From: Heterodontus francisci
Taxonomy: Eukaryota
Assembly (NCBI RefSeq): GCF_036365525.1
Contig: NC_090413.1
Coordinates: forward strand, 24,722,601 to 24,786,600
DNA: 64,000 nucleotides
Reading direction: 5' to 3'
Part shown: positions 1,100 to 64,000 of the stretch, in pieces
Layout: every line of letters begins with the position of its first letter
How positions within the stretch are numbered: position 1 is the stretch's first letter
Notes under the pieces: model-generated
Told to the model about the DNA's origin: nothing
What the model saw: the letters and a program-made list of their open reading frames with translations, nothing else
The model's database searches: none
Made by a program: the position numbers and the translations under genes

Positions 1100-1221
1100 T
1101 TTCTAGTGGAGGTGTCAACGTTGGTGTTCTTTGTACTGACTGGTTATAAGTTTCGACCAGCCTCCAACAACCCCTATCTACAGCTCCCACAGGACGAGGA
1201 GGATGTCACAATGGATGAAGT
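1100..1221 (+). CDS. GPR108: GPR108 (lung seven-TM receptor family), penultimate coding exon
   Basis: ttcttag acceptor, GT|gtaagt donor; translates [40 protein letters not shown](V), the last TM helix and tail of GPR107/108. LVEx[11 protein letters not shown] and DVxM favour GPR108, as does the C3 linkage. Confidence 0.9.
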
Positions 1222-1716
1222 GTAAGTAACTGGACCTGCTCCCGGTAGCAGTTGGTCAGATATCATTGTCTGCATCAGTAACAACAGTTGGGCATTTCAG
1301 TGGCTTCTTTTGGGAGGGCAGAAGATTCAACAAGAAGAATTTTTCTTTTTGCACTAATGCACAACTTGGTGAATTTACAAGCCAGTTGAATTATCTGACA
1401 CTGTGGTTCCTGTAACCTATCAAAATGCAACCAGTCTTAAGCCACAACCTACTCTTCCAATATCTCTTGACTTGTACTGTATTCTCTTCTCCCTACCTGT
1501 AGCGCTTGTCCTACTTTGTACCATCTTTTTAAATAGATAGTAAATCCTAACTCCAGAAAGGGCAGTGGAAGCAGATTCAACAGTAAACTTTCAAAAGGGA
1601 ATTGGATAAATACTTGAAGGGGGAAGAATTAGCAGAGCTGTGGGGAAAGAGCAGAGGGACTGGGCTGAAAATGGGCAGCTCTTTCAAAGAGAGAGCACAG
1701 ATGTGATGGACTGAAT

Positions 1717-2077
1717 TAAAGGCAAAAGAACCCGACCAATCCACAGTGGACCCGAGCCCGACTCGGCCCGAGTTCCTCCAATTTTGCACTAAGCCCGACC
1801 CCACTCGACCCGACCCAACCATCCCTTTACTTAACTTCCGACTGGGAAGCTCCACGAAGCTGCAGCGCATAAGTGATGACGTCACTCGCTCACTGCACAA
1901 ACTCAGTTTCGTCCCGGACTCCCAGTTCAGGTAAGTTTTATTTTTAATACTTACCGGCAGAGTATTTACCGTGTGTGTCCGGCCTGACCAGACCCGACCT
2001 GACTCGGAAAGCCAGATTCGGAAGATGGGCCGAACCTGACACATGTCGTCTGGTTCGGGTCAGGTAGCAGGCCTTTA
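1717..2077. mobile_element. hAT-type MITE inserted in a CR1 3' fragment (about 1540-2118)
   Basis: TIR-like ends TAAAGGC...GCCTTTA; many subterminal ACCCG/CCCGAC repeats; 8-bp TSD gactgaat/ggctgaat. Confidence 0.75.
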
Positions 2078-2251
2078 GGCTGAATGGCCTCCTTCAGTGC
2101 TGTAAGATTGTATGATTCCCAAATATGTGCCTAGGATATCAAGTTACTGCAGTGGTAGAAATGTATGAAGAATAATAGGTTACATAGAATTCTATAGATC
2201 CGTTTTTGATTAATTTTTGTTTCTGAACATTCCTCATGCAGTATATATCTG

Positions 2252-3142
2252 TGTCATGCTAGGCCCCCACCTGCCAAGAATGAGGCACATTAATTTTGTC
2301 ATGAACATTAATTTTAAATTGTTACTGGAGTGAAGAAAGGACTTATTAAACAGATCAGCCATGGCTGGAAAAGACATTTCCATATTAACAGATAGCAATT
2401 GGAAGGACAAAGGACCATTCCCTGACACATTCAACCCACAATAGACCTTGATCACCAGGTATTGTGTTTAAGAGGAGCTTTCCAGAGACTGCTAAGGCGA
2501 TACAATCCAAGATGTGGTCAGACCAGTTAGTCACATAATTAAATTGCTTGGCAACCTGGGTTTTTCTGAATTGTACTAACAGTTTGAACTGAGAGTGTCT
2601 GTTTGCTCCTGGACTGAGAAGATCTCTCTCCTGTCTGCTCCCATCTCTTTCTGACAAGCCTTTGAATCCACTGAAGACACATGAACCCCAAGAGAGAAAA
2701 GTCTCCTACAGCGAACAAGGTTTAAGAACTGGGCCCCAACGAAAAGCAAGATCTACCTACGATCAAGGACTCTACAGTCAGCTCGAAGAACCGTAACAGC
2801 AACTCTTCAGATATTGCCTCAAACTTTTCCACTTTTTTTTCCTTCTCTTTTGTCTCTCTATTTGCATGTGTGTATCAAGTACGCACGCTAGCGTGGGCGC
2901 ATCGTGTATTCGTAGGGGTTTACCGAGTTAGAGTTTAAGTTTAATAAATTTAAACTTTTCTTCTTTAAACCTAAGAAAACCTGTTTGTGCTGGTTTCTTT
3001 GCCTTATAATTGGAAAGCGGTGAACAAAGATTCACAAGGGGGAGCTAAAAACATGATGTGTTTAAAAATTAAACGCTGTTACGGTAAGACCAGGTGAAGG
3101 CTGAGAGGGAACCCTAGACACCTTTCTCAACTGGTCGTAACA
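2252..3142 (+). mobile_element. LTR of an LTR retrotransposon followed by a degenerate primer-binding site
   Basis: TG...CA ends (tgtcatg...cgtaaca) with internal AATAAA; followed by tgggtgctagtgtccagat, resembling a tRNA-Pro PBS (TGGGGGCTCGTCCGGGAT); homologous copy at 63222-63947. Confidence 0.7.
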
Positions 3143-3287
3143 GAAATTTGGGTGCTAGTGTCCAGATTTGTCCCACAGACAAATGAGAGAAATTGGAAGT
3201 TGGGAACAATTTGGCTTCCCAATCAAAAAAAAAAGCATGATTTCGGTTGCTGGTATAAAGGGCTCATCAATATGTGCTTTTCTTTAG

Positions 3288-3375
3288 ACTGACTGGTTCA
3301 GGTTTGCTGGCGAGTGTAACCAGAGTGAAGAAGAGCAACCATGAGAGAGAACAAATTCGGGATTCCTCTGTATGA
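3288..3375 (+). CDS. GPR108: GPR108 terminal coding exon
   Basis: ttttctttag acceptor; phase matches the previous exon (GT|A = Val); reads VLTGSGLLASVTRVKKSNHEREQIRDSSV*, similar to the V(M/V)TxSG..KVxK tail of GPR107/108. Confidence 0.85.
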
Positions 3376-62098: not shown

Positions 62099-62261
62099 AT
62101 CCCCAAAGACAGAATTCCAAAAGAAACTAGATCGACCCAGTATGTCGTGTTGGAAGCATCATCTACAGCGTTTAACTTGGAGAAACTCATCCGTATTTCG
62201 TATAAAACAGGACACATATTTATCCAGACTGATAAACCAATCTATACACCAGCCCAAACTG
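62099..62261 (+). CDS. C3: Complement C3 exon 3 (MG1-MG2)
   Basis: IPKDRIPKETRSTQYVVLEASSTAFNLEKLIRISYKTGHIFIQTDKPIYTPAQT contains the thioester-protein-family FIQTDKPIYTP signature; tttctag acceptor, gtaac donor. Confidence 0.92.
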
Positions 62262-62943
62262 GTAACTATAGCTGCAATTTTTCTAATATATCTCCAGTGC
62301 ACAAGTATATAATGGGTGGGGTGCGAAAAACGGGATGACGAGGCCTTAGCTCATCAAATTGAGGGATGTTGGGAATGGAGAATGGAAGTCTTCCCATTTC
62401 AGGGATAAGAGTGGCTGCATTAAACAATCCCAAGCCATATGTTGAAGCACATCTTCACGCAAAGGGTGGTAAAAGTTTGGAACTCACTCCTGCAAATGGC
62501 AATTAATGCTGGATCAATTGCTAAATTTAAAACTGAGATTGATAGAGTTTTGTTAACCAAAGGTATTAACATAAGACCATAAGAAGTAGGAGCAGAAGTT
62601 GACCGTACGGCCCGTTGAGCCTGCTCCGCCATTCAATATGATCATGGCTGATCTTCTGCCTCAATTCCACTTTCCCACCCTGTCCCCATACCCCTTTGAT
62701 TCCCTGAGAGATCAAAAAATCTATTGATCTTAGCCTTGAACATAATGGTGCAGCATCCACAGCCTTCAGGAAGAGCAACAACAGGTATATAGAGTTAGGT
62801 CACATGATCTCACTGAATCATGGAACAGGCTTGAATGGCTAAATGACTTACTCCTCTTCCTATATCCCCATATTCCTACGATACAGCCACATCCTCTACA
62901 CTACCCCAACAGCATATCTCAGCTCAACCTCAACAGCAGTCCC

Positions 62944-63193
62944 TGTTGTGTGTGTACACCTTTAAAAGATGTGGCTACAAGATCATGTTAGTCATGTAAG
63001 AGCTATGATGTAACACACCATGTGATTCTGAGTGTTAGGCAGTCTTGAAGATACACCTGTACAGTAACCATCTCAATGTAATTGCTGCTCTCTAATCAAT
63101 AAAGAACACACAATATTGTGTTACTGATCCCATCTTTGGTGATCAGTCTTTGCGTACAGTCTATACAAACACAGAGGTTCAAGAAACGCAACA
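62944..63193 (+). mobile_element. 250-bp solo LTR with 5-bp TSD
   Basis: TGTTGTGT...ACGCAACA inverted ends, internal AATAAA, perfect GTCCC direct repeats on both flanks. Confidence 0.8.
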
Positions 63194-63221
63194 GTCCCTA
63201 CTGCACCAGTGTAATATTTTA

Positions 63222-63947
63222 TCCTACGCCTATGGATACACGACCCACCCACGCTAGCATGCATACACGATATACACATGCAGATAGAGACAGAACAGAG
63301 CAGAAGAAATAAAGTGGAAAAGATTGAGGCAATCTCTGAAAAGGGTATTTGTTACGGATCTTCAAGCTCATGGTAGAGTCCTTGATTGTAGGTCGATCTT
63401 GCTTTTCATTGGGGCCCAGTATTTTTCTTAAACCTTGTTCACTAGAGGAGATTTTTCGCTCTTGGGGTTCATGTGTCTTCAGTGAATTTGCAGTCCCGTG
63501 AGAAAGAGATGGGAGCAGACAGACAGGAGAGGCTGTGGTGAGCCAGCCAGGAGTGGCCTTTTCAGTCCAGGAGAAAACAGACACTCTCCGTTCAAACTGT
63601 TTTGCACAATTCAGCAAAACCCAGCTTGCCTAGCAGGTTAGTCATGTGACCAGCAGGTCTGACCACGTCTGTTTGTGGATTCTCTGGTCTGAGCCAACCC
63701 TGGAATGTCTCTTCTTACACACAATACCTGGTGCTCAAAGTCCATTATGGGTTAAATTGGAGCAGGGAATAGCTCCTTTGTCCTTCCAAGCCCTGGCTGT
63801 TGGTATGCAAAAATGTTTTTCCAGCCAAGGGTTTGGTGATTTTTTTTTATCAAGTCCTTTCTTCACTTCAGCAACAGTTTGAAATTTAATGTCCATATAG
63901 CGAAATTAATATGCCTCATTTTTGGCAGGTGCAGGTCTAGCATGACA
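63222..63947 (-). mobile_element. Truncated LTR, same family as 2252-3142, inverted
   Basis: Reverse complement starts TGTCATGCTAGACCTGCACCTGCCAAAAATGAGGCATATTAATT, matching tgtcatgctaggcccccacctgccaagaatgaggcacattaatt at 2252; similarity continues for about 700 nt. Confidence 0.8.
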
Positions 63948-63997
63948 ATTATGAAAGCATGTAATATGGATTAATCATTGTCTCCTTCTTTCTCTAG

Positions 63998-64000
63998 TTC
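63998..64000 (+). CDS. C3: Probable first bases of C3 exon 4 (cut by window end)
   Basis: Strong polypyrimidine acceptor ctccttctttctctag; G|TT gives the Val expected after ..YTPxxT. Confidence 0.55.

What the first reader, a model, noticed from the sequence alone, without database searches (positions are those of the whole stretch)
1100..64000. GPR108 - RDH8-like - RDH8 - C3 gene order joins two separate human C3 neighbourhoods
Seen: GPR108(+), two RDH8 genes(-) and C3(+) are contiguous. Established: in human, GPR108 lies directly 5' of C3 in the same orientation (19p13.3), whereas RDH8 lies next to the pseudogene C3P1 (19p13.2). Inference: this shark locus may preserve an ancestral gnathostome block containing GPR108, RDH8 and a C3 cluster. 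C3 and C3P1 would then be old tandem duplicates later split by rearrangement, each keeping one neighbour.
Basis: partly seen in the sequence, partly recalled or inferred. Interest (0 to 1): 0.72.

Follow-up and report, generated by a model that had tools for sequence, protein, structure and literature searches.

The report
Ancestral C3 neighbourhood, overlooked C3 paralog
This shark keeps GPR108, two retinol-dehydrogenase-type genes and a single complement C3 gene side by side, amid genes that humans carry in two separate parts of chromosome 19, and related proteins reveal a second, very old C3 lineage in lungfish, amphibians, turtles and some placental mammals that is likely the source of the human pseudogene C3P1.

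Summary
The order GPR108(+), RDH8-like(-), RDH8(-), C3(+) is real, with intact gene models. It sits between SHFL and a COL5A3-type collagen, with a TRIP10-type gene upstream, so human 19p13.3 and 19p13.2 genes are interleaved on one shark chromosome. The GPR108/RDH8/TRIP10 block beside C3 is already in print for tetrapods (PMC11118497); the shark extends it. Trees show three old C3 lineages in tetrapods. Human C3 scores closest to lineage I. Lineage III (lungfish, amphibians, turtles, dugong, manatee, warthog) lacks the catalytic histidine in 11 of 11 sequences and split no later than the ancestor of bony vertebrates; an origin inside lobe-finned fishes is rejected (AU p=0.004). Whether it predates sharks is unresolved (p=0.30). 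That lineage III is human C3P1 is inferred, not tested: no C3P1 sequence was available. Verdict: observation confirmed, interpretation partly supported, moderate interest.

The parts
1100..1221 (+). GPR108 second-last coding exon
   Evidence: RNA-type contigs cover 1100-1221 without mismatch and continue at 3288; translation
3288..3375 (+). GPR108 last coding exon to the stop codon; 3' UTR contigs reach about 6100
13073..19361 (-). RDH8-like gene A, six exons (19361-19265, 17451-17290, 15835-15656, 15519-15426, 14847-14664, 13303-13073), 315 aa
   Evidence: splice sites and open frame; exons 5-6 closer to copies on C8 (58-65%) than to gene B (exon 5, 49%)
34790..46640 (-). RDH8-type gene B, six exons (46640-46535, 40893-40732, 39816-39637, 37894-37801, 37068-36885, 35017-34790), 317 aa
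   Evidence: splice sites and open frame; nearest solved structure is HSD17B1, E 3e-12; the label RDH8 for this copy is recalled
57167..57234 (+). C3 exon 1 (signal peptide)
   Evidence: 100% to P0001; GT..AG joint to 59451 in 2 of 2 RNA-type runs
59451..59643 (+). C3 exon 2 (MG1)
   Evidence: best PDB hits are C3 chains, E 3e-7
62099..62261 (+). C3 exon 3
63997..64000 (+). start of C3 exon 4; the gene runs on to about 145,800 in window coordinates

Best explanation
The window holds an old gene order, TRIP10-GPR108-RDH8-like-RDH8-C3 between SHFL and a COL5A3-type collagen, which likely existed in the ancestor of jawed vertebrates and was likely split in the mammalian line into human 19p13.3 and 19p13.2. 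Shown: the shark order, a single C3 in 1.44 Mb, and three old C3 lineages in tetrapods. Inferred steps: (1) C3 duplicated, probably in tandem, no later than the last common ancestor of bony vertebrates, giving the main C3 line and lineage III. (2) The main line duplicated again near the origin of tetrapods (lineages I and II). (3) In mammals TRIP10, GPR108 and lineage I C3 left the interval, while RDH8 and the lineage III gene stayed with SHFL and COL5A3; the lineage III gene decayed to C3P1 in humans. The shark gene is a normal C3 (thioester, catalytic His, convertase site) and stands for the main line or for the gene before the duplication.
For: Order on C43: SHFL x2, NOTCH-type, TRIP10-type, GPR108, RDH8 x2, C3, NR5A-type, keratin, collagen V/XI-type at 25.26-25.46 Mb; EIF3G at 27.86, GTF2F1 at 29.43, two TNF genes at 31.2-31.35 Mb. 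Human: C3 at 19:6.68-6.73 Mb with GPR108 and TRIP10 as neighbours; RDH8, C3P1, SHFL, ANGPTL6 listed in a row (PMC13700139). RDH8/TRIP10/SH2D3A named as immediate neighbours of GPR108 between C3 and VAV1 in tetrapods (PMC11118497). Lineage III is one clade (SH-aLRT 99-100) and lies outside the clade of all other bony-vertebrate C3 (99-100) in the four full-length IQ-TREE trees. Lineage III plus lobe-finned C3 as one clade is rejected (p=2e-6 LG+G4; p=0.004 mixture model). Human C3 scores 2170 bits to turtle I, 1809 to turtle II, 1703 to shark C3 and 1254 to dugong III. Lineage III shares a contig length with main C3 genes in Emydura (4.0 Mb contig, all three lineages), axolotl and lungfish.
Against: No human or primate C3P1 sequence was obtained, so its place in lineage III is untested, and no gene neighbours of any lineage III gene were seen. 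An opossum paralog (P0228) falls in lineage I, so therians have other C3 duplicates that could be the source of C3P1. Lineage III lies on a different contig from the other C3 genes in 2 of 6 species (Spea, Bombina) and 1 of 6 is uninformative (Rhinatrema). Lineage III has longer branches, so its depth may be overstated. No lineage III gene was found in sharks or ray-finned fishes, which needs one or two losses. VAV1 and SH2D3A were not detected next to TRIP10 here, and NOTCH-type, NR5A-type and keratin genes interrupt the block, so the shark order is not a pure ancestral state. Only one shark genome was examined for gene order.
Confidence: 0.65

Rival explanations
1. One reading: the jawed-vertebrate ancestor already had a C3 pair (main line and C3P1 line) at this locus, and sharks and ray-finned fishes each lost the second gene. 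This is the older-date case of the best explanation.
For: Lineage III is sister to sharks plus all other bony C3 in the best trees: SH-aLRT 99 under LG+G4, 89 under the mixture model; the alternative is rejected with 36 rows under LG+G4 (p=0.0066).
Against: The alternative is not rejected under the mixture model (p=0.30) or with 23 rows and fast columns removed (p-AU 0.21-0.53); the node is unresolved in the 48-row tree. No second C3 or remnant in 1.44 Mb. Extra C3 copies of other sharks and rays nest inside the cartilaginous-fish clade.
Confidence: 0.35
2. The synteny is old but C3P1 is a younger offshoot of lineage I that landed near RDH8; lineage III is a separate gene unrelated to C3P1.
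For: A divergent lineage I paralog exists in opossum; lineage I duplicated repeatedly in turtles, squamates and frogs.
Against: The three divergent placental C3-like proteins that were named (dugong, manatee, warthog) are all lineage III; the two other placental proteins named are called Complement C3 and group together in lineage I. That humans have only one C3-derived pseudogene is recalled.
Confidence: 0.2
3. Lineage III arose within lobe-finned fishes and is pulled to the base of the tree by fast evolution.
For: It was found only in lungfish and tetrapods; its branches are longer than those of lineages I and II; this needs no loss in sharks or ray-finned fishes.
Against: Rejected under both models; it stays outside the main bony clade when C4 and C5 are left out.
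Confidence: 0.1
4. The order is a shark-specific shuffle or a misassembly.
For: About 31% of the window is repeated sequence; no contig spans the gaps between the genes.
Against: No N in 464 kb around the window; the same neighbours are reported in tetrapods; further human 19p13 genes lie on the same contig.
Confidence: 0.03

Closest known systems
C3-(RDH8)-GPR108-TRIP10-SH2D3A-VAV1 block of tetrapods (Nevue et al. 2024 preprint, PMC11118497; read: abstract, introduction, results and found passages; figure not seen)
   Same: GPR108, RDH8 and TRIP10 lie together next to C3.
   Different: The paper covers amniotes and one caecilian and, in the text read, mentions neither sharks nor C3P1. Here there are two RDH8-type genes, a DR1-like gene between TRIP10 and GPR108, and no VAV1 or SH2D3A detected next to TRIP10.
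Vertebrate C3.1 and C3.2 clades (Najafpour et al. 2020, PMC7768046; read: sections 20 and 23, found passages, part 1 of 7 of Table S1, searches in supplements)
   Same: Shark C3 groups with the main C3 line; GPR108 and TRIP10 are named as conserved neighbours; 1 C3 in elephant shark, 2 in whale shark.
   Different: The tetrapods in its table are human, mouse, chicken, anole and Xenopus; RDH8 and C3P1 do not occur in its main text. It calls lizard and Xenopus copies species-specific. Here two further old lineages (II, III) appear; lineage III does not group with the divergent ray-finned clade in my trees (my match of that clade to C3.2 is assumed).
Human complement C3 (PDB 9rf3, 2a73)
   Same: Shark gene: 1653 aa, 11 Pfam domains of the C3 type, RKRR cleavage, GCGEQ thioester, catalytic His, Arg-Ser convertase site.
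   Different: Lineage III keeps Cys-x-Glu-Gln in 10 of 10 sequences covering the site but has no His at the catalytic column in 11 of 11; the 3 placental members lack the Arg at the convertase site (a gappy part of the alignment).
RDH8 / HSD17B1 group of classical short-chain dehydrogenases
   Same: TGxxxGxG, NNAG, YxxxK, six exons; nearest PDB entry HSD17B1. Tandem rdh8 copies are reported in teleosts (PMC8073704, passages).
   Different: The two shark genes are only 56% identical, and gene A is closer to a copy on another chromosome than to gene B, so the pair is probably far older than a shark-specific duplication.

Membership tests
Complement C3 (shark gene) | Full C3-type domain set (MG domains, anaphylatoxin, CUB, TED, C345C) | tested here: met
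   P0001 carries 11 Pfam domains and maps in 41 pieces to the locus
Complement C3 (shark gene) | Closer to C3 than to C4 or C5 | tested here: met
   1703 bits to human C3, 732 to C5, 697 to C4
Complement C3 (shark gene) | Thioester GCGEQ, catalytic His, beta-alpha tetra-basic site, Arg-Ser convertase site | tested here: met
C3 gene cluster at this locus | Two or more C3 genes or remnants nearby | tested here: not met
   0 of 7 and 0 of 8 queries hit outside the one gene in 1.06 and 1.44 Mb; two runs of N (35 kb in all) unread, each far shorter than the 89-kb gene
GPR108 (versus GPR107) | GOST seven-transmembrane domain | tested here: met
   upstream exon hits PF06814, 26.7 bits, cut-off 25.2
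GPR108 (versus GPR107) | Orthology by chromosome: 19p13 neighbours, paralog on another chromosome | tested here: met
   a 90%-identical paralog exon lies on C32; C43 carries SHFL, EIF3G, GTF2F1 and C3
GPR108 (versus GPR107) | Orthology by tree with named sequences | not tested
   no named GPR107/108 proteins were fetched
RDH8 | Classical SDR motifs and HSD17B1/RDH8 group | tested here: met
RDH8 | One-to-one orthology of gene B with human RDH8 | not tested
   no named RDH8 proteins were fetched; the assignment rests on recalled sequence features
RDH8 | All-trans-retinal reductase activity in photoreceptors | not testable with these tools
   needs assay and retinal expression data
Lineage III = human C3P1 | C3P1 exons nest in lineage III | not testable with these tools
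   no C3P1 sequence among the hits listed or among the 30 representatives named
Lineage III = human C3P1 | Placental lineage III gene lies between RDH8 and SHFL | not testable with these tools
   protein tools give no gene context
Lineage III as a C3 paralog | Nests within vertebrate C3, inside the lamprey outgroup | tested here: met
   support 99-100; dugong protein 1254 bits to C3, 662 to C5, 639 to C4

The most novel reading that the evidence does not exclude
Human C3P1 is not a recent broken copy of C3 but the dead human member of a separate complement gene at least as old as bony vertebrates, possibly as old as jawed vertebrates. It is still full-length in lungfish, amphibians, turtles and placental mammals such as dugong and manatee, keeps a thioester but lacks the catalytic histidine, so it would react like amine-preferring C4A, and in placentals it may not be cut by C3 convertase. 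The shark locus shows the neighbourhood in which it arose and how the mammalian rearrangement left it beside RDH8.
Probability: 0.5. Interest if true: 0.7.

Novelty: new member of a known kind. Interest (0 to 1): 0.5.

Why it matters
The gene order alone is a modest extension of published synteny to a shark. The follow-up matters more: if lineage III is C3P1, mammals have a second, ancient C3-type gene that humans lost, with altered thioester chemistry, and 'C3-like' genes in other mammals, turtles and amphibians are three different old genes rather than recent copies. That would change how C3 evolution, species differences in complement and the human C3P1 transcript are read, and it can be tested directly with public genomes.

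Tried and rejected
PF06814 search of the genome hit only three other loci, TMEM87-like by my reading of their exons, not this gene; GPR108 was found by exon scan instead. I first took lineage II (monotremes, turtles, amphibians) for the C3P1 line and searched with the echidna protein; no therian protein was among the 120 listed and none of the representatives named fell in lineage II, so I dropped that idea. I first read the basal clade as cyclostome; look-ups showed it to be lungfish and tetrapod. Shark C3 as the ortholog of lineage III was weakly rejected (p=0.047; p-AU 0.01, 0.03 and 0.09, with 5000 resamples, fewer than advised; the fourth topology of that call was not printed and is not used). 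The 'careful' bootstrap search was not finished; all support values are SH-aLRT or FastTree's local support. Rows left out: the 23-row set drops 14 of 36 rows (C4, C5, three divergent ray-finned rows, opossum and eight others) and adds hagfish; one search kept 192 rows with at least 350 aligned residues. Of 98 unnamed exon candidates around the locus, 96 had no Pfam hit, so genes between NOTCH and TRIP10 and between keratin and the collagen may be missed. The other thioester loci were not classified one by one. Sequencing runs: no RNA holder listed on record; contigs were too short to test the assembly, and the DNA runs may be the source of the assembly; no spliced joint for either RDH8 gene appeared among the rows shown. 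Atlas search with the warthog protein gave only general thioester-protein clusters. Papers that gave nothing on the question: PMC9526059 (unordered gene list), PMC4290089, PMC10751288, PMC8613079, PMC9598424 (a pig LOC gene raised in serum; its link to lineage III untested), PMC9958679 (a bat transcript labelled C3P1); only found passages of these were read. Earlier findings of this scan: nothing near or alike.
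Full report
Setting. The window is G000:C43:24,722,601-24,786,600 on a 31.9-Mb contig of a 6.0-Gb genome.

Observation. The four genes are as described. The last two GPR108 exons (1100-1221, 3288-3375) are joined by RNA-type contigs in 3 of 4 runs, all three from one sample. Two short-chain dehydrogenase genes on the minus strand have six exons each, canonical splice sites, identical intron phases and open frames of 315 and 317 aa, 56% identical; the nearest solved structure is HSD17B1. C3 starts at 57167 and spans 89 kb in 41 pieces; it scores 1703 bits to human C3 against 732 to C5 and 697 to C4 and has the thioester, the catalytic His and the convertase site. 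The GPR108 label rests on chromosome context: a 90%-identical paralog exon lies on C32. The RDH8 label for gene B is recalled, not tested.

Neighbourhood. I read 1.44 Mb of C43. The order found is RAB3-type(-), SHFL(-), a fibrinogen-domain gene(-), SHFL(-), NOTCH-type(-), TRIP10-type(-), DR1-like(-), GPR108(+), RDH8-like(-), RDH8(-), C3(+), NR5A-type(-), keratin(+), collagen V/XI-type(+). EIF3G, a fibrinogen-domain gene of possibly ANGPTL type, GTF2F1 and two TNF genes lie 3-7 Mb further on. Names beyond the Pfam family are my reading of the translations. In humans C3 lies at 19:6.68-6.73 Mb (PMC7768046, Table S1) with GPR108 and TRIP10 as neighbours, and RDH8, C3P1, SHFL and ANGPTL6 are listed in a row (PMC13700139, table passage). 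So the two human neighbourhoods are interleaved in the shark. PMC11118497 already names RDH8, TRIP10 and SH2D3A as the immediate neighbours of GPR108 between C3 and VAV1 in non-avian sauropsids, mammals and amphibians (figure not seen). The block is therefore known for tetrapods, and the shark carries it back. VAV1 and SH2D3A were not detected beside TRIP10, but 96 of 98 unnamed exon candidates had no Pfam hit, so genes may be missed.

No C3 cluster here. None of 7 and none of 8 C3-family queries, including five lineage III proteins, hit outside the one gene. Genome-wide, 2 of 33 thioester-domain matches are on C43, both in this gene; 20 of 28 matches to a second nurse-shark C3 and 3 of 8 matches to a lineage III protein are in this gene, the rest in other thioester loci that I did not classify (both used a stricter first look, so a diverged copy elsewhere is not excluded). 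Other sharks and rays have two or three copies, but these nest inside the cartilaginous-fish clade.

Three old C3 lineages. From about 380 fetched proteins I built trees of 70, 192, 36, 23 and 48 rows. Lineages I and II are sisters that split after lungfish (support 80-97 in the full-length IQ-TREE trees). Human C3 scores higher to turtle I than to turtle II (2170 against 1809 bits), and a golden mole C3 falls in I. Lineage II holds monotremes, squamates, alligator, turtles and amphibians. Lineage III holds lungfish, caecilian, axolotl, three frogs, two turtles, dugong, manatee and warthog; its inner order follows the species tree. It lies outside the clade of all other bony-vertebrate C3 (support 99-100). 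An origin within lobe-finned fishes is rejected (p=2e-6; p=0.004). A split before sharks is the best tree (99 under LG+G4, 89 under the mixture model), and the alternative is rejected with 36 rows under LG+G4 (p=0.0066), but not under the mixture model (p=0.30) nor with 23 rows and fast columns removed (p-AU 0.21-0.53); the node is open in the 48-row tree. These hypotheses were named after the first tree was seen. The safe date is 'no later than the ancestor of bony vertebrates' (over 420 million years, my own knowledge).

Tandem origin. Lineage III shares it with the main C3 genes in 3 of 6 species (Emydura, a 4.0-Mb contig holding all three lineages; axolotl; lungfish), differs in 2 (Spea, Bombina) and is uninformative in 1 (Rhinatrema). 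The axolotl and lungfish contigs exceed 1 Gb, so only the turtle case indicates close linkage.

Function of lineage III. Cys-x-Glu-Gln is kept in 10 of 10 sequences that cover it; the catalytic His is absent in 11 of 11. One main-line lungfish C3 lacks it too, so the loss is not unique. From the known C4A/C4B difference (established knowledge), such a thioester would prefer amines. The three placental members lack the Arg at the convertase site, in a gappy part of the alignment. These are predictions.

The open link. No C3P1 sequence was available. The link to lineage III rests on parsimony: the three divergent placental C3-like proteins named are all lineage III, and humans have one C3-derived pseudogene, beside RDH8 (its being the only one is recalled). 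Against it, an opossum paralog derives from lineage I. I put the link at about 0.75. Also recalled and untested: human RDH8 and C3P1 lie head to tail, unlike shark RDH8 and C3, so the split needs a further inversion.

Novelty. Ten searches found no paper on the origin of C3P1 or on lineage III: one search returned 0 papers, and by title and start of abstract none of the 40 listed of 92 C3P1 papers concerns its evolution. PMC7768046 did not sample it among the tetrapods in part 1 of its Table S1, and C3P1 does not occur in its main text or its three held supplements (one was cut when stored). Most subscription journals, where much complement evolution is published, and gene-tree databases were not searched, so an earlier description is quite possible.

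Verdict. Observation confirmed. The ancestral block is supported and largely known; the shark C3 cluster is not there; an old duplicate that probably became C3P1 exists, dated to the base of bony or of jawed vertebrates. Interest 0.5.

Noticed in passing
L041:1129-1332 (-) and a second exon near C43:24,680,600 (-): A spliced DR1 (NC2-beta)-like gene lies between TRIP10 and GPR108. Human DR1 lies beside the TRIP10 paralog FNBP1L (recalled), so this may be a whole-genome-duplication copy that mammals lost.
   Followed up: partly
L015-L017, C43:24.89-24.91 Mb (-): An NR5A-type nuclear receptor (C4 zinc finger, ligand-binding domain) directly 3' of C3, possibly nr5a5 (the name is recalled).
   Followed up: partly
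window 13073-19361; L145 (C8:23.98 Mb); L146 (C33:57.49 Mb): RDH8-like gene A is closer to the copy on C8 (58-65% in exons 5-6) than to its neighbour gene B (49% in exon 5), with a further copy on C33 (49%); the tandem pair may predate the vertebrate genome duplications.
   Followed up: partly
C43:24.087-24.150 Mb (-): Two SHFL (shiftless, UPF0515) genes with a fibrinogen-domain gene between them.
   Followed up: no
L087-L088, C43:25.010-25.019 Mb (+): A lone intermediate-filament (keratin-like) gene between the NR5A-type gene and the collagen.
   Followed up: no
proteins P0057, P0058, P0064, P0076, P0077, P0080, P0107, P0113: Tetrapod C3 lineage II, kept in monotremes, squamates, alligator, turtles and amphibians but not seen in birds or therians among the hits; it keeps GCGEQ and the catalytic His. 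Not found described in the papers searched.
   Followed up: partly
C29:10.9-11.7 Mb: A cluster of 12 TNF-domain matches on C29.
   Followed up: no
window 4064: All four RNA-type runs carry 13 extra bases in the GPR108 3' UTR relative to the assembly: an allele or a small assembly error.
   Followed up: no
L093:6507-6902 (+): An open frame matching the ZCCHC3 RNA-binding domain, probably part of a retroelement.
   Followed up: no
window 24011-25492, 31337-32650, 52232-53104, 55264-56793: Decayed LINE-type reverse transcriptase pieces, by my reading of the frames, fill much of the space between the genes; about 31% of the window is repeated sequence.
   Followed up: no
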